Of a DNA stretch of 11,968 bases, positions 885 through 9,329 are shown one piece after another. The notes beneath the pieces are model-generated. The model was not told where the DNA came from and made no database searches. It saw only the letters and a program-made list of their open reading frames with translations. The stretch is from a virus (taxonomy: Duplodnaviria > Heunggongvirae > Uroviricota > Caudoviricetes), in the IMG/VR virus record IMGVR_UViG_2617270939_000005. One strand, written 5' to 3'. Position numbers and translations under genes: made by a program. Numbering within the stretch: position 1 is the stretch's first letter; each line of letters begins with the position of its first letter.

Positions 885-912
885 TGGAGCGGGCGAAGGG
901 AATCGAACCCTC
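885..912 (-). repeat. 3'-terminal 28-nt fragment of tRNA-Gly (CCC-anticodon, glyU-like): T-arm, acceptor 3' strand and CCA. Attachment-site direct repeat, not an intact tRNA gene
   Basis: Reverse complement of 885-912 is GAGGGTTCGATTCCCTTCGCCCGCTCCA. It has a TPsiC-loop (GGTTCGATTCC), an acceptor 3' strand CGCCCGC and CCA, matching the 3' end of enterobacterial tRNA-Gly(CCC) as I recall it. Similarity to a tRNA body stops at 912, so the 5' two-thirds of the tRNA are absent here. Confidence 0.7.
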
Positions 913-2826: not shown

Positions 2827-3027
2827 ATTATCCTCCTACCCCTTCAAGGGAGATGTAGGAACGAAGTATTCTCAAGTTGAAGCTCAGTTTGGAGACATAT
2901 TAGGAAACTGTTTTATGCTCAGCCTACGCAATCTACGTCAATCCGTCAAGAATTGTTTTAAATATAGGCAAGTAACAAGGCAGCCACAACAACACATAAC
3001 CGAATGAAAATAAAAGAAATAATCTCA

Positions 3028-4708: not shown

Positions 4709-5704
4709 TTATGCAGCTTGTCGGAAATTTATAACGCAGTCAGGGCGGCGCAGCCCAACATTGAACAGGCGATATGAGTCCATCACCATTGTCATTTCGC
4801 GTTCATCATCCCACTGGCGATTGATAACGCTCTGCGCTTCGACTGTCACAAGTACAGACGCAGGCCGGAACAGCGTCGCCCGTGTCAGCGCTTCCCCTGC
4901 GGTCACATCATAATCAGCGCCCAGTTCATGCGCGGTAATGGCTTCCTGCGGGTAACTGTTCAGCTCAATAACTCGCACCCCAGCGACATAGCCAACGCGA
5001 CGCCATGCGTAATCATTGCCACTATCCCGGCTGTAACGGACGTTCATCAACTTCTTATGTTCCATCAGGATGCTGAACCAAGCTGGGTCGATGAGAAGGC
5101 ACAGCTCCGCCACCGGAATATCTTTTTCAGTTAGGAATCGATTAACAGCAGCTTTAATAGCGTGAACCAGTTCGTTAGCCGCATCCTCTTCGCTCCCCGT
5201 TGTCAGGTCGAGCGAGACAACATTATCCGTCAGCGGGTTAAACGTTGGTTGCAACGTAGGCGGCGGTACAAAGTCAGTCGCTTTGATTAGCTGGATAGTG
5301 TGCGCTTCGTCGTAGAACTTTGCATGGGCTGTCCCCATGTTGCGGCTCAGCTCTGCGCGAAAGGTGGGCGCTGTCCAGTCGTCTTGATAGTCAATCGGGA
5401 TGCGGATATAGCTCAGCGTATCCACAGAGATAATCAGCTTGTCCGACTTAACGGCGGTAGGCTCCAGCGATTGCCCTGCGGTTCTGCCCTTCACCTCCAG
5501 ATCTCCGCTCAGGCGGTCTACACGATACTGATTACTGTTTTTCAGCGGCTTGTATGTGCTCAGCCCCTCGGCGAGAAACACGCTCTTTGCCTCAAGGCGG
5601 GTCTGAACGTCCCGGTCATACGCTTCAATGTGAATGTCGTTGTCAGCATCTACACCGCCCCAGTGCGGGCGGAATTGGTCAGGGGTATAAACATTGTCAG
5701 TCAT
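4709..5704 (-). CDS. Putative major capsid protein (lambda gpE-like family, tentative), 331 aa
   Basis: ATG at 5702-5704 with GGGAG 9 nt upstream. Size and two segments (LLIDPAWFSIL and the C-terminal W-DDEREMTMVMDS...RRPDCVINF) loosely resemble lambda E-type capsid proteins as I remember them. The resemblance is from memory and not verified by alignment. Confidence 0.5.
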   Translation of the reverse strand: MTDNVYTPDQFRPHWGGVDADNDIHIEAYDRDVQTRLEAKSVFLAEGLSTYKPLKNSNQYRVDRLSGDLEVKGRTAGQSLEPTAVKSDKLIISVDTLSYIRIPIDYQDDWTAPTFRAELSRNMGTAHAKFYDEAHTIQLIKATDFVPPPTLQPTFNPLTDNVVSLDLTTGSEEDAANELVHAIKAAVNRFLTEKDIPVAELCLLIDPAWFSILMEHKKLMNVRYSRDSGNDYAWRRVGYVAGVRVIELNSYPQEAITAHELGADYDVTAGEALTRATLFRPASVLVTVEAQSVINRQWDDEREMTMVMDSYRLFNVGLRRPDCVINFRQAA

Positions 5705-6279: not shown

Positions 6280-7806
6280 TTAACGGCCAGCGCGTTTGCC
6301 AGCGGAGCGCTGCGCAACCAGAGCGCGGTATTGATCGTCGTACTGGCGATGGCCGGGGCCATACCCTGATTGCTGCGCCCACTGCGAAAGCTGATCATAC
6401 GCTGCAATAAACTCAGCATGAGACATACCAACAGGTTGCGAGGCAGGCTGGCCGTATGGGTTCCCCTGTGATGGGACATAACCAGTCGCAGTGCCTGCGA
6501 CCATACGCTCTTGCAGATAATGAACCGCCCGCTGCATCTGCGCAGGGTCGCCAGACATAACCATCCGTTCAAGGGTTGATTGCGTCCCGGCGTCGAGCGT
6601 GCCAGCGTACTGCAACATCGCGTCAACTGTCCCCTGCCCTAGCTGGCTTTCGACAGACTGGTGAAACTGCCCCATCAGCCCATGAAGTTCAGGAGTCAAC
6701 TCAACAGTAGTGCCATCCTGTAATTGCAGCGTGTCGCCCACTTGCGCAGCAACATCAATCTGCTGGTCTTGCTGGTTGGCAAAGTTACTTTCGTTCCAGC
6801 TTTGATTAATGTTCGCTGGCTGCGTTTTCAGGAAATCAGCATCAGGTGTTGTCTGGTCGAATCTGCTAGCGCCGTTGTCAGCGCCTACAGGTGCGGCCAT
6901 GTACGGCGATTGCTGCGGCGCAGTATCAGCGCCCGAAAGGTACGGATTAACATTCTGGTCAGCCAGCACATCACTACCACGGGAGAAGATCGCATCAGCA
7001 ACAGACAACTGCCCCGGCCTCCACTCCAGCCCATCGGGTGGCAACAGGCTAACGCGTGCGTTTCGGTCACAGCGAACCAGCGGGCGAAACTCATAAGAGG
7101 CTGTATTCAGTGACGGCACAGACGGCGACACTGCCAAGCCGTTTGGGTCACAATGATGATTTGTACTGTTAAATTTATCCTCGGTAGGTTTCGACTCTCC
7201 ACACCACAATTGACGAAACTCCGCTGAGTCCCCGTAGCGTTTGAAATCTGAATTGCGCATCGCTTCCAGTTTATTCATGCCCCTGTTGATGCGGTGTATA
7301 GTCTTCTCATCACAAATCAGGAACTCGCGGCAGGCTTTGAGAAAAGCATTCTGCCCGGTTGTCGATGCCGAAACGGCGTGCTCGCGCGGTTTCAATGCGG
7401 CATCATCTACGCGAACACCGGGAAAATCAGGCGGCAGCGGGTCAGCATACCGAGCAGGCTTCTTGTTGAGCCACATTTCTATCTCAGCGCGTCGGCAATG
7501 AATTGCGTCACCGGGCTGGATGACTTGCCGCAACCCCGTGTCAGAGCGCTGTTTTTGCTTCTTCGGTTGAACACCATGCAGCGCTCGCCATTCCCGCAGG
7601 GTCATAGCGGAGCCATCAGCATTGTAATAAAACTCTTCGGTCTTCGTGTTGTATGCCGCCTTAACGGGTTTATGCTTTATCGGGCATATCTTGGAACGCC
7701 GAATAACAATCCCGTCAGCGACCATTTGCTGTACATCTGCGTTTGCGGTATTGAGCGGGTCAGCGTCGGCAGCCTGCGCAAGCAAACGGCGTAGGTTCGT
7801 TGGCAT
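6280..7806 (-). CDS. Hypothetical protein, 508 aa: N-terminal region with HTH-like segments, C-terminal half Gln/Gly/Ala-rich low complexity
   Basis: ATG at 7804-7806 with GGAG 8 nt upstream; first gene of the minus-strand operon. Segments AMTLREWRALHGV and QVIQPGDAIHCRRAEIEMWL look like DNA-binding (AlpA/HTH-like) motifs. The C-terminal ~200 residues are Q/G/A/P-rich. No Walker A or protease motif seen. Confidence 0.7.
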   Translation of the reverse strand: MPTNLRRLLAQAADADPLNTANADVQQMVADGIVIRRSKICPIKHKPVKAAYNTKTEEFYYNADGSAMTLREWRALHGVQPKKQKQRSDTGLRQVIQPGDAIHCRRAEIEMWLNKKPARYADPLPPDFPGVRVDDAALKPREHAVSASTTGQNAFLKACREFLICDEKTIHRINRGMNKLEAMRNSDFKRYGDSAEFRQLWCGESKPTEDKFNSTNHHCDPNGLAVSPSVPSLNTASYEFRPLVRCDRNARVSLLPPDGLEWRPGQLSVADAIFSRGSDVLADQNVNPYLSGADTAPQQSPYMAAPVGADNGASRFDQTTPDADFLKTQPANINQSWNESNFANQQDQQIDVAAQVGDTLQLQDGTTVELTPELHGLMGQFHQSVESQLGQGTVDAMLQYAGTLDAGTQSTLERMVMSGDPAQMQRAVHYLQERMVAGTATGYVPSQGNPYGQPASQPVGMSHAEFIAAYDQLSQWAQQSGYGPGHRQYDDQYRALVAQRSAGKRAGR

Positions 7807-7880
7807 GGTGAAATCTCCAAAATTAAGGTGAGTTTAGAACGAGGCGCAGGACGGCAGCGCCGAGCTGCCCGTAGAGAGAA

Positions 7881-7947
7881 TTTCATGTCAGCAGTGACGT
7901 TGAATGTTCTGTCCCTCTTTAGTAGTGACTTTCATGTAGGTCACTAC
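7881..7947. promoter_or_regulatory. Operator-like repeat cluster upstream of the minus-strand operon
   Basis: Perfect 8-bp inverted repeat GTAGTGAC (7922-7929) and GTCACTAC (7940-7947) with a 10-bp spacer TTTCATGTAG. The motifs TTTCATGT and AGTGAC both recur at 7881-7898. Located 75-140 bp upstream of the 508-aa gene start. Confidence 0.35.
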
Positions 7948-8210
7948 GTATGCACAAGCGAGTGGTGTTCGTTTTGCCACAGTAGAAACTCTAATTTGAT
8001 TATTTTTTAATCAACACCTTTGTAAGCCTTGCCCTGTCTGACTTGATGAATGATTTGCTGATAACTTTCAGTAGGTTTGTTGGGATGCTGGGATGTAAGG
8101 GGTTATAAGCGGCATTGTGAGTACCATATCCCAATATAGTACCGTACCACTACTCTATCCCCGCCGCGTTGACTGCCTGGCAAGCACGGTTGCGTGGAGG
8201 GCCGAGCATC

Positions 8211-8260
8211 ACAGCGGGCGAAGGCCGGGAATGAGCCAAAGGCGATGGAGCGGGCTGGAG
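8211..8260. repeat. Degenerate copies of the tRNA-Gly 3' end (relic att-type direct repeats)
   Basis: AGCGGGCGAAGG at 8213-8224 is identical to 888-899 of the tRNA fragment, and TGGAGCGGGC at 8246-8255 is identical to 885-894; both are in the same orientation as the 885-912 repeat. The surrounding 8200-8300 is purine-rich with recurring GAGC...AGCG units. Confidence 0.45.
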
Positions 8261-8629
8261 CATAGCGAGAAGCGCAGCCAGTGTAGAGCGAAAAGCGATA
8301 ACACTGATTAGGAGAAGGGATGAAAGGGAAGAACCCTTTTCTGTACATGTATTTTAAATGCAACTTTAAAGGTAAAACGAAGGTGTTGCCCTGCTTCAAA
8401 TCTAGCTGAGTGATTGGACAACACAGCCTTTGATCCCTTCCCCTGCCCCATCCCTCGAATTGTTCAGTGATAAATCACATTCACAATCTGATCTTGATAC
8501 TCATCGTCTGGCACGGCTAAAGCCCCGCCATCTCTTCATATCAAGAGCCGCAAGTAATACGGAAATACATTATAAATCATACCATTACGAGATTAGGCAT
8601 AACATAAATATCTGATATCAATACAAAAG

Positions 8630-8700
8630 CTGTAGGCCATCCATCACCCACAGCCCAGTAACGGCCAGTGCTGGCATCTCATCAGACTGTAGGTCATCAC
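8630..8700. repeat. Imperfect direct repeat CTGTAGG(C/T)CATC...CAC at the 3' end of the recombinase gene
   Basis: CTGTAGGCCATCCATCAC at 8630-8647 and CTGTAGGTCATCAC at 8687-8700; the second copy overlaps the recombinase stop codon at 8697-8699. Significance uncertain. Confidence 0.35.
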
Positions 8701-9329
8701 TCTGTAACGCTGGCGGACAGCTCACGTTTGATACGGTAGAACGTTGCCCGGCTTATCCCGGCAGCTTTCATGATGTGCTCTGGTTTATTCCCAACGGTAA
8801 GCATAGCGCGGACAGTTTCACGGGCGCTCTCATCCTTAGACTTCCCGTTATATTTCCCCTCGGCTTTGGCACGCTTGATGCCCTGCGCTTGGCGTGCTCT
8901 GCGTGTCTCGTAGTCCACTCGTGCCATCGTAGCGAGGATATCAATCAGCATTGCGTTAACAGCTCTCAGGATGCCCTCTGTAAGCTCTGACGCCGTATCG
9001 TTCAGTAGTTGCCATGAGGTTGGCAGGTCAACGGCAACGATCACCAGTCCCTTATCCTGAATCCTCTGTTTCAGTGTCGCCCATTCCTTTTGCGTAAGGC
9101 GGCTTAGCCTGTCGATGCTCTCGACAAGCAAGACCTCTCCGGCCTGCGCATCATCCAGCAAGCGCATTAGTTCAGGACGCGCCAGCCTCGCACCGCTGGC
9201 GTTCTCGATGTACTCCGCCCGTACAGGCCAGCCCCGATCACTGGCGAACTCTCGCAGCAAGCCCAGCGCCCGGTCTGCGTGTTGCTCTGATGTACTGGCG
9301 CGGCAATAGATAAGCGCATTGTGTGCCAT
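8697..9329 (-). CDS. Small serine recombinase (resolvase/invertase family), 210 aa
   Basis: N-terminal catalytic motif YCRASTSEQ (the Y-x-R-x-S-T-x-x-Q serine recombinase signature), the VESIDRLSR motif and a C-terminal HTH (AAGISRATFYRIKRE). ATG at 9327-9329 with GGGGGA upstream. Confidence 0.85.
   Translation of the reverse strand: MAHNALIYCRASTSEQHADRALGLLREFASDRGWPVRAEYIENASGARLARPELMRLLDDAQAGEVLLVESIDRLSRLTQKEWATLKQRIQDKGLVIVAVDLPTSWQLLNDTASELTEGILRAVNAMLIDILATMARVDYETRRARQAQGIKRAKAEGKYNGKSKDESARETVRAMLTVGNKPEHIMKAAGISRATFYRIKRELSASVTE

What the first reader, a model, noticed from the sequence alone, without database searches (positions are those of the whole stretch)
7881..7947. Operator-like inverted and direct repeats upstream of the phage-like operon
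A perfect 8-bp inverted repeat (GTAGTGAC/GTCACTAC, 10-bp spacer) plus recurring TTTCATGT and AGTGAC half-sites lie 75-140 bp upstream of the first operon gene. This is the expected position for a repressor or activator site controlling induction of the element. No obvious repressor gene is present in the window, so control may come from a helper phage or from the first gene's HTH-like N-terminus.
Basis: seen in the sequence. Interest (0 to 1): 0.4.

Follow-up and report, generated by a model that had tools for sequence, protein, structure and literature searches.

The report
Helper-phage RNA polymerase promoters on satellite
The repeats upstream of this E. coli island's phage-like operon are most likely not repressor binding sites but a tandem set of promoters copied from T7-type (Bonnellvirus) phages, so the island would stay silent until such a phage infects and its own RNA polymerase switches the island on.

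Summary
The repeats exist exactly as described, on the strand opposite to the operon, whose first ATG is at 7806 on the minus strand. The 8-bp inverted repeat is not conserved. Only the window, L001 and L025 have it, and none of 16 other distinct relatives does.

What is conserved is a roughly 28-nt direct-repeat motif in the sense orientation, consensus AAATGAAAG-TnnCTAC-TAAGGAG, present in 2-5 copies upstream of the first gene in every relative.

The same motif occurs at 4-5 syntenic places in Bonnellvirus and Waewaevirus podophages, whose capsid is the closest relative of the island's capsid at 57% identity. One place lies directly after the phage RNA polymerase gene. LIMEzero's record annotates two of its sites as putative phage-specific promoters.

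The motif core is uniform within a phage and differs between phages. The differences track substitutions in the RNA polymerase specificity loop.

A matrix built from phage sites alone ranks window 7997-7970 and 7937-7910 first and second in the whole window.

My best reading is a phage-satellite operon transcribed by the helper's RNA polymerase, with no repressor needed. No transcription data were available. The window's copy of the element is itself deletion-damaged. I found no published description.

The parts
7970..7997 (-). Promoter copy 'a'. Sense strand reads AAATTAGAG-TTTCTAC-TGTGGCA-AAACG. Predicted start is near 7978 (+/-2).
   Evidence: It is the top hit of the whole window on both strands with the phage-only matrix, at 19.3 bits. 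Shuffled windows gave a maximum with mean 11.0 and 95th percentile 15.2. It aligns with the -201/-143 copy of relatives.
7910..7937 (-). Promoter copy 'b'. Sense strand reads ACATGAAAG-TCACTAC-TAAAGAG-GGACA. Predicted start is near 7918/7917.
   Evidence: It is the second-best hit of the whole window, at 17.2 bits. The same GTCACTA core is found in L015 at -95.
7861..7888 (-). Copy 'c', weak or degenerate. Sense strand reads ACATGAAAT-TCTCTCT-ACGGGCA-GCTCG.
   Evidence: It occupies the same slot as the -95 copy of relatives, such as ACATGAAAACCTCTATAAGGGCAGAGAG in L005. It scores only 1.3 bits with the phage matrix.
7940..7947 (.). Right arm (plus strand) of the 8-bp inverted repeat. On the sense strand it is GTAGTGAC, 22-29 nt upstream of the start of copy b.
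   Evidence: It is present only in window, L001 and L025, and absent from 16 other distinct relatives. As RNA the repeat would form a hairpin of -10.4 kcal/mol.
7996..8014 (-). AT-loop hairpin TTGATTA-aaaaa-TAATCAA directly upstream of copy a.
   Evidence: Found. L006 keeps a hairpin at this position with changes on both sides (CATGGTTA-aaaaa-TAACCATG), while other relatives keep it only partly. Phage P1 sites are likewise preceded by a hairpin.
8124..8140 (-). Remnant of a distal promoter copy, sense ACTATATTGGGATATGG. Its upstream half has been lost to a deletion of about 190 nt.
   Evidence: L002, L004, L006 and L015 carry the full copy CAATGAAAGCTACTATATCGGGATATGG (15.8-19.2 bits). This nearly matches Kc261 P1, TTATGAAAGCTACTATATTGGCC.
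7804..7818 (-). Ribosome-binding site (sense GGAGA, 7814-7818) and start codon (7804-7806) of the first operon gene.
   Evidence: The sequence is invariant in the alignment of 8 relatives.
6280..7806 (-). First ORF of the operon, 508 aa. It is a deletion fusion of a DEAD/DEAH helicase N-terminus (about 281 aa) with the C-terminus of a head scaffolding-like protein.
   Evidence: Window 6962-8193 matches L001 8263-9494, and window 1602-6965 matches L001 1-5364, so L001 5365-8262 is missing from the window.
4709..5704 (-). Major capsid protein of the element. This gene links the element to its presumed helper phages.
   Evidence: It matches phrog_267 at E = 2.8e-67. Its closest phage relatives are Bonnellvirus at about 57% identity and LIMEzero at 51%.

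Best explanation
The region is a tandem array of promoters for the single-subunit RNA polymerase of a helper podophage of the Bonnellvirus type (Autographiviridae). The array sits at the head of the long minus-strand operon of an integrated phage satellite.

Each unit is about 28 nt, asymmetric, and points toward the operon. It has three parts:
- a TA-rich, purine-rich start region (TAAAGAGGGA).

The window holds two strong copies (a at 7997-7970, b at 7937-7910), one degenerate copy (c at 7888-7861) and a truncated distal copy.

Inferred mechanism: in an uninfected cell nothing transcribes the operon, so no repressor is needed. When a matching phage infects and makes its RNA polymerase, the enzyme initiates at these copies. 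It then transcribes the helicase, scaffold, capsid, HNH and endonuclease VII genes in one run. Copies with different cores would let one element respond to phages of different promoter specificity.

The perfect inverted repeat is a lineage-specific accident of the sequence just upstream of copy b, not a conserved site.

Shown: motif identity, conservation, orientation, enrichment, occurrence in the phages, and covariation with the phage polymerase. Inferred: that the polymerase actually initiates at these sites.
For: 1. Alignment of the upstream regions of 8 relatives shows conserved same-strand repeats rather than the dyad.

2. A matrix built from satellite copies finds, in Lidtsur, J8-65, LIMEzero and Kc261, top hits that are nearly all on the transcribed strand and at syntenic places. 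One place lies directly after the RNA polymerase gene. LIMEzero's record annotates two of these sites as 'putative phage specific promoter'.

3. A matrix built from 16 phage sites alone ranks window 7997-7970 (19.3 bits) and 7937-7910 (17.2 bits) first and second of all positions on both strands. Shuffled windows gave a maximum with mean 11.0 and 95th percentile 15.2.

4. In 11 distinct satellites there are 32 sense and 5 antisense hits of at least 12 bits in the 450 nt upstream of the helicase gene. The remaining 92 kb holds 0 sense and 1 antisense hit. Twenty loci show copies at fixed offsets, and five further E. coli genomes show the same arrays.

5. Twelve phages not used to build the matrix carry the motif with a core that is uniform within each phage: GCTACTA in usur; GTGTCTA in BHUENT7, SS-2025, Ec1-ASingh, megetsur, mellemsur, HHU8 and aldrigsur; GTGACTA in forsur, ROV85 and RZ4; GTAACTG in smaasur. 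Satellite copies carry exactly these cores.

6. The uniformity within a phage holds even for sites embedded in coding sequence, so the signal acts at the DNA level. An ATG is not required, for example AAATTAGAG or TTTAAAGG, which excludes a small-ORF reading.

7. The only 11-mers present four or more times in Kc261 are the motif.

8. The polymerases of usur and Kc261 (same core) are 99.4% identical. BHUENT7's polymerase (different core) is 91% identical, with 9 substitutions clustered in 13 residues. This cluster aligns to T7 RNA polymerase residues 741-754, within the specificity loop and including N748.

9. In relatives, a divergent copy is 26/28 identical to Kc261's post-polymerase promoter, and 172 nt around it are 97% identical to Kc261's left-end non-coding DNA.

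10. The capsid's nearest phage relatives are these same phages, and their hosts overlap: E. coli, Kosakonia and Enterobacter.
Against: - No transcription data were available. The phage sites themselves are only predicted promoters.
- Most of the 16 phage sites used for the matrix were first located with a satellite-derived matrix, which is partly circular. This is mitigated by the record annotation, the de novo k-mer result and the held-out phages.
- The window's own cores (GTTTCTA in a, GTCACTA in b) each differ by one base from cores seen in sequenced phages. Exact-pattern scans of IMG/VR found no phage carrying them.
- Copy c scores only 1.3 bits.
- Register relative to T7, T3 and SP6 promoters is uncertain by about 2 nt.
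- The window's element is defective: the helicase is truncated and a phage-derived segment is missing. Whatever the array does in intact relatives may be vestigial here.
Confidence: 0.8

Rival explanations
1. One reading: the inverted repeat and the half-sites are operators for a dimeric repressor or activator. The regulator would come from the element, a co-resident prophage or a helper, and would gate a host sigma-70 promoter.
For: A perfect 8-bp dyad with a 10-nt spacer lies in a promoter-proximal position. The local chance of such a dyad is about 0.03.
Against: - The dyad is absent from 16 other distinct relatives.
- No repressor-like gene was found in the window or in intact relatives.
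- Sigma-70-like sites are no more frequent than in shuffles, and the one candidate is not conserved.
- One arm is simply the core of promoter copy b.
- The repeated units are asymmetric and all in one orientation.
Confidence: 0.04
2. The repeats are iterons of the element's replication origin. They would be bound by the adjacent helicase or initiator, as in SaPI and PICI origins, rather than acting as promoters. A milder form: they are promoters that also prime replication, as the T7 primary origin does.
For: Direct repeats lie next to a helicase gene, with an A/T-rich hairpin segment beside them. From my own knowledge, the T7 primary origin consists of two phage promoters followed by an A/T-rich region.
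Against: - Copies within one element differ precisely in their core, which is unlike iterons.
- Each core equals a phage promoter class.
- The motif sits at promoter-type places in phages that lack this helicase.
- The core covaries with the polymerase specificity loop.
- The dual-role version is not excluded.
Confidence: 0.08
3. The inverted repeat acts as an RNA hairpin in the leader transcribed from copy a. It could be a pause, processing or stabilising element between promoters.
For: The predicted stem has 8 pairs and -10.4 kcal/mol. Phage P1 sites are preceded by hairpins.
Against: It is not conserved in any other lineage. Its 3' arm overlaps the promoter core, instead of ending upstream of the promoter as the phage hairpins do. 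No U-run follows it.
Confidence: 0.05

Closest known systems
Promoters of T7-group single-subunit RNA polymerases (T7, T3, SP6, K11)
   Same: - Asymmetric unit of about 23-28 nt.
- A/T-rich upstream part, a short specificity block, a TA-rich melting region and a purine-rich start.
- Repeated through the phage genome in the transcribed orientation.
- Specificity block covaries with the polymerase specificity loop.
   Different: - The sequence is different (ATGAAAG-nnnCTAn-TAAGG).
- Spacing seems about 2 nt shorter than in SP6 or T7.
- These sites lie on a bacterial chromosomal island, not in a phage.
- Copies of several specificity classes stand in tandem.
P4 satellite late promoters (P_sid, P_LL) transactivated by helper P2 Ogr
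   Same: A satellite carries helper-type promoters, so its morphogenetic operon fires only when the helper's transcription factor is present.
   Different: In P4 a host polymerase is helped by a zinc-finger activator at a TGT-N12-ACA dyad. That pattern is absent here. In this element the helper's own polymerase would be used directly. P4 also has its own immunity system.
SaPI and PICI induction (Stl-type repressor lifted by a helper protein; packaging operon activated by phage late activators)
   Same: An integrated island with an integrase that depends on a helper phage for expression and spread.
   Different: No master repressor, no AlpA, and no divergent repressor/activator promoter pair were found. 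The presumed helper is a strictly lytic podophage.
PLE of Vibrio cholerae and capsid-forming PICIs
   Same: Like PLE, the element would respond to a lytic phage. Like capsid-forming PICIs, it encodes its own capsid and scaffold-like proteins.
   Different: No portal, protease or head-tail connector genes were recognised in the element. No gene other than the capsid has BLAST-level similarity to the Bonnellviruses. The proposed trigger, promoter mimicry, is not described for these elements in the papers I could search.

Membership tests
Phage single-subunit RNA polymerase promoter (Autographiviridae type) | The same asymmetric consensus recurs in the phage genome on the transcribed strand, including just after the polymerase gene. 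| tested here: met
   There are 4-5 syntenic sites in each of 8 full phage genomes, and P2/P3 sites in 8 more. Two LIMEzero sites are annotated as putative phage promoters.
Phage single-subunit RNA polymerase promoter (Autographiviridae type) | The specificity bases covary with the polymerase specificity loop. | tested here: met
   Core classes are uniform within a phage. Polymerase differences cluster in the segment aligned to T7 residues 741-754, including N748.
Phage single-subunit RNA polymerase promoter (Autographiviridae type) | The window sites match the phage consensus beyond chance and point toward the genes. | tested here: met
   The top two hits of the window score 19.3 and 17.2 bits, against a shuffle 95th percentile of 15.2. 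Both are on the sense strand. Enrichment is 32 hits in the upstream regions versus 0 elsewhere.
Phage single-subunit RNA polymerase promoter (Autographiviridae type) | The phage polymerase initiates at the site, independently of the host polymerase. | not testable with these tools
   This needs infection transcriptomics, in vitro transcription or a reporter assay.
Repressor operator of a prophage or PICI | A dyad-symmetric site conserved, or co-varying, among relatives. | tested here: not met
   The dyad is present only in window, L001 and L025, and absent in 16 other distinct relatives.
Repressor operator of a prophage or PICI | A cognate repressor gene in or beside the element. | tested here: not met
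   No cI, Cro, Stl or AlpA-like protein appeared in Pfam or PHROG scans of all ORFs of the window and L001. There is only a weak HTH in a 187-aa protein that the window lacks.
Repressor operator of a prophage or PICI | The site overlaps a host sigma-70 promoter. | tested here: inconclusive
   The scan found 2 promoter-like sites against 1.6 expected. The one on the sense strand (8026-7999) lies upstream of the dyad and is not conserved.
Iteron-type replication origin | Several near-identical repeats within one element. | tested here: not met
   Copies within an element differ in the core, for example GTTTCTAC versus GTCACTAC in the window, and GCTACTA, GTGTCTA and ATCACTA in L002.
P2/P4 Ogr/Delta-dependent late promoter | A TGT-N12-ACA dyad about 55 nt upstream of the start. 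| tested here: not met
   The pattern is absent from the 394 nt upstream of the ATG.

The most novel reading that the evidence does not exclude
These islands are an undescribed family of satellites of strictly lytic Autographiviridae podophages, found in E. coli, Enterobacter, Kluyvera and Kosakonia.

They would detect infection by promoter mimicry. A tandem array of helper-polymerase promoters, each tuned to a different specificity class, would give one element several possible helpers. The array would evolve by switching cores, partly through recombination with phage DNA. Relatives carry 172 nt that are 97% identical to the phage left end.

The array may also serve as a transcription-primed origin or as part of a packaging signal.
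Probability: 0.55. Interest if true: 0.85.

Novelty: new variant of a known kind. Interest (0 to 1): 0.7.

Why it matters
Known phage satellites sense their helper through a repressor that a helper protein inactivates, or through a helper activator that assists the host polymerase. An element that carries only copies of the helper's own polymerase promoters would be a simpler trigger. It would need no regulator gene, would be silent without phage, and would be immediate and specific on infection.

It would also extend satellites to T7-type lytic phages, which are common in phage therapy work. It would explain why such islands look unregulated to annotation pipelines.

The tandem copies with different cores, matched to natural polymerase specificity classes, make a direct test possible. 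They also offer a natural catalogue of orthogonal polymerase-promoter pairs.

Tried and rejected
- Rfam (E <= 1) and tRNA scans of the window found nothing relevant.
- BLAST of single promoter copies against the phage collection gave only chance hits, because the queries are too short.
- Exact-pattern scans of IMG/VR for promoters with the window's own cores returned 0-2 contigs. These contigs are unrelated to Bonnellviruses or to the element.
- The small-ORF reading (ATGAAAG as a start codon plus Lys) was rejected, because several copies and two LIMEzero sites lack an ATG.
- The Ogr/Delta-type dyad and a CTG-N10-CAG pattern are both absent.
- The claimed HTH in the first gene's N-terminus found no support.
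- tblastn of all element proteins against 8 phage genomes found that only the capsid has a homologue.
- Six literature searches found no description of satellites of Autographiviridae or of satellites driven by a phage polymerase. The library is incomplete, so this absence is weak evidence.

Full report
**Observation.** The window's phage-like operon runs on the minus strand. Its first ORF (6280-7806) starts with ATG at 7806, preceded by GGAGA. On the plus strand, GTAGTGAC (7922-7929) and GTCACTAC (7940-7947) form a perfect 8-bp inverted repeat with a 10-nt spacer. TTTCATGT occurs at 7881 and 7930, and AGTGAC at 7893 and 7924. The description is accurate.

Perfect 8-bp inverted repeats with a spacer of 20 nt or less occur at 7 places in the window, against about 4 registers expected. 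The chance of one in a random 200-nt stretch is 0.034.

**What the element is.** The window holds the following genes:
- a tyrosine integrase on the plus strand (971-2221);
- a minus-strand gene row with endonuclease VII, an HNH endonuclease and a major head protein (phrog_267, E = 2.8e-67);
- a serine recombinase (8697-9329).

Window 885-912 is a 28-nt copy of the 3' end of the tRNA-Gly gene that flanks the element in NZ_LR536431, which marks an attachment site. 56 of 5426 complete E. coli genomes carry related DNA.

In the intact relatives I examined (L001, L002), the first gene is a 614-aa DEAD/DEAH helicase. It is followed by small genes, a scaffolding-like protein, the capsid gene, and so on.

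The window is a damaged copy:
- It lacks 2.9 kb (L001 5365-8262), so its 508-aa ORF fuses the helicase N-terminus to the scaffold C-terminus.
- It lacks about 190 nt further upstream that relatives retain.

The capsid's closest phage relatives are lytic podophages with their own RNA polymerase. These are Bonnellvirus (Lidtsur, J8-65, usur, Kc261 and others, about 57% identity) and Waewaevirus LIMEzero (51%). No other element protein has a BLAST-level match in them. This is the gene content expected of a phage satellite.

**The conserved feature.** I collected relatives from these sources:
- Kluyvera, Kosakonia and Enterobacter genomes;
- IMG/VR;
- metagenomes;
- further E. coli genomes.

In L002 the right arm is simply different.

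What is conserved is a same-strand unit of about 28 nt, present 2-5 times at fixed distances from the ATG: -95/-98, -143, -201, about -280, -329 and -432. Examples are ACATGAAAGTCACTACTAAAGAGGGACA in the window and TAATGAAAGTATCTACTAAGGAGAAAGA in L005.

The arm GTAGTGAC is the core of the unit at 7937-7910. The second arm is lineage-specific flanking sequence. The second AGTGAC lies in a spacer.

**Link to the phages.** A matrix built from satellite copies gave top hits in four phage genomes that are nearly all on the transcribed strand. They fall at the same four places in each genome:
- before the replication genes;
- immediately after the RNA polymerase gene;
- about 250 nt further on;
- inside an internal virion protein gene.

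LIMEzero's GenBank record marks two of its sites as putative phage-specific promoters.

A matrix built only from the 16 phage sites ranks window 7997-7970 (19.3 bits) and 7937-7910 (17.2 bits) first and second among all positions on both strands. Shuffled windows reach a mean maximum of 11.0, with a 95th percentile of 15.2.

Over 11 distinct satellites, hits of at least 12 bits number 32 sense and 5 antisense in the 450 nt upstream of the helicase gene. In the remaining 92 kb there are 0 sense and 1 antisense.

**Why the phage motif is a polymerase promoter.**
- *Uniform core within a phage.* The 7-nt core is the same at all sites of a given phage, even at the two sites that lie inside coding sequence. 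It differs between phages:
  - GCTACTA in Kc261 and usur;
  - GTGTCTA in BHUENT7, SS-2025, Ec1-ASingh, megetsur, mellemsur, HHU8 and aldrigsur;
  - GTGACTA in forsur, ROV85 and RZ4;
  - GTAWCTG in Lidtsur, J8-65 and smaasur;
  - GCAAGCAC in LIMEzero.

  Twelve of these phages were not used to build the matrix.
- *De novo repeat.* The only 11-mers present four or more times in Kc261 are this motif.
- *Covariation with the polymerase.* The usur and Kc261 polymerases are 99.4% identical. BHUENT7's polymerase is 91% identical, with 9 changes in a 13-residue stretch. HMMER aligns that stretch to T7 RNA polymerase residues 741-754, including N748. From established work on T7 and T3 polymerases (my own knowledge), this loop reads the -8 to -12 bases and N748 sets T7 versus T3 specificity.
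- *Layout.* The A/T-rich upstream part, specificity block, TA-rich stretch and purine-rich start parallel T7, T3 and SP6 promoters. The register is uncertain by about 2 nt.
- *No ATG needed.* Some copies lack an ATG, so a small-ORF explanation fails.

**Satellite arrays carry the phage classes.**
- L002, L004 and L015 combine GCTACTA, GTGTCTA and a third core.
- L005-type arrays hold GTATCTA, GTGACTA and others.
- In relatives a divergent copy is 26/28 identical to Kc261's post-polymerase promoter.
- The 172 nt around that divergent copy are 97% identical to the non-coding left end of Kc261.
- E. coli elements with identical sense arrays, two of them (L046 and L047) also sharing the same helicase protein, differ only in that copy's core: GTGT, GCTA or GTGA.

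The window's own cores, GTTTCTA (a) and GTCACTA (b), each differ by one base from sampled phage classes. GTCACTA recurs in L015. No phage with these cores was found. Copy c is weak at 1.3 bits, and the distal copy is truncated (8140-8124).

**Mechanism proposed.** The operon has no detectable conserved host promoter and no repressor gene. Upon infection, the helper's polymerase would initiate at the array and read through the whole gene row. No further sense-strand site of at least 12 bits occurs inside the elements, which fits a processive phage polymerase. These steps are inferred, because no expression data were available.

**Rivals.**
- An operator fails on conservation and on the lack of a regulator.
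- Iterons fail because copies differ in exactly the bases that define the phage classes. A dual role as a transcription-primed origin, as in T7, remains open.
- A leader hairpin role for the inverted repeat (-10.4 kcal/mol) is unsupported by conservation.

**Comparison and novelty.** The closest functional parallel is the P4 late promoters answering to P2 Ogr, but their TGT-N12-ACA signature is absent here. SaPI and PICI elements use a repressor, PLE responds to a lytic phage by an unknown route, and capsid-forming PICIs also encode capsids.

Six full-text searches found no report of satellites of Autographiviridae or of satellites driven by a phage polymerase, and the Bonnellvirus papers do not discuss promoters. 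I rate it a new variant of a known kind: helper-dependent activation, achieved here by promoter mimicry.

**Verdict.**
- The operator interpretation is not supported.

Noticed in passing
window 6280-7806 (junction near 6962-6965): The 508-aa 'first gene' is a deletion fusion. It joins the N-terminal ~281 aa of a 614-aa DEAD/DEAH helicase to the C-terminus of a 228-aa head scaffolding-like protein. 2.9 kb present in L001 (5365-8262) is missing, so this copy of the element is probably defective.
   Followed up: yes
window 8194-8742: This 549-bp segment is present in the window and in L002 but absent from the otherwise identical L001. In L001 the conserved block ending GCACGGTTGC is joined to the C-terminal codons of the serine recombinase gene, with a 5-bp overlap. 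It could be a simple deletion or a recombinase-mediated event.
   Followed up: partly
window 8352-8379 (+ strand): A promoter-like site, TTTTAAATGCAACTTTAAAGGTAAAACG, scores 15.6 bits and points away from the operon, toward the recombinase gene in antisense. The L002 equivalent scores only 8.3 bits. Its core matches no sampled phage class, and it could be chance (about 5% per window).
   Followed up: no
L024 1993-2164 (also L002 9393-9445); missing from the window near 8141: Relatives carry 172 nt that are 97% identical to the non-coding left end of phage Kc261 (41350-41521). The segment includes a reverse-oriented phage promoter that in the phages points toward the genome end. It may be a mimic of a packaging or replication signal. 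The window has lost it.
   Followed up: partly
L044-L047 (E. coli genomes), about -390 from the helicase ATG: The divergent promoter's core differs (GTGTCTA, GCTACTA, GTGACTA) between elements whose sense arrays are identical. Two of them (L046, L047) also share the same helicase protein. Each variant equals a known phage class, which suggests rapid switching of helper specificity.
   Followed up: partly
window 885-912: A 28-nt exact copy of the 3' end of the tRNA-Gly gene that flanks the element in NZ_LR536431, which is likely the attachment-site repeat. The integrase lies at the end of the island far from the tRNA gene. A relative (L002) sits at tRNA-Leu instead.
   Followed up: partly
window 7996-8014: A hairpin, TTGATTA-aaaaa-TAATCAA, lies directly upstream of promoter copy a. 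L006 keeps it with changes on both sides (CATGGTTA/TAACCATG), while other relatives keep it only in part. Phage P1 promoters are also preceded by hairpins.
   Followed up: partly
window 2960-2987 (+ strand): A weak motif hit (8.4 bits; 10.9 bits at the same place in L002) lies in the gap between the endonuclease VII gene and the next gene, antisense to the operon. I cannot tell whether it means anything.
   Followed up: no
phage records L029 41335-41362, L030 42203-42230, L010 550-519: Bonnellviruses carry one extra copy of their promoter on the non-coding strand near the left genome end. In J8-65, whose record annotates the repeat, it points toward the terminal repeat. This is reminiscent of end-proximal promoters involved in T7 replication and packaging.
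   Followed up: no
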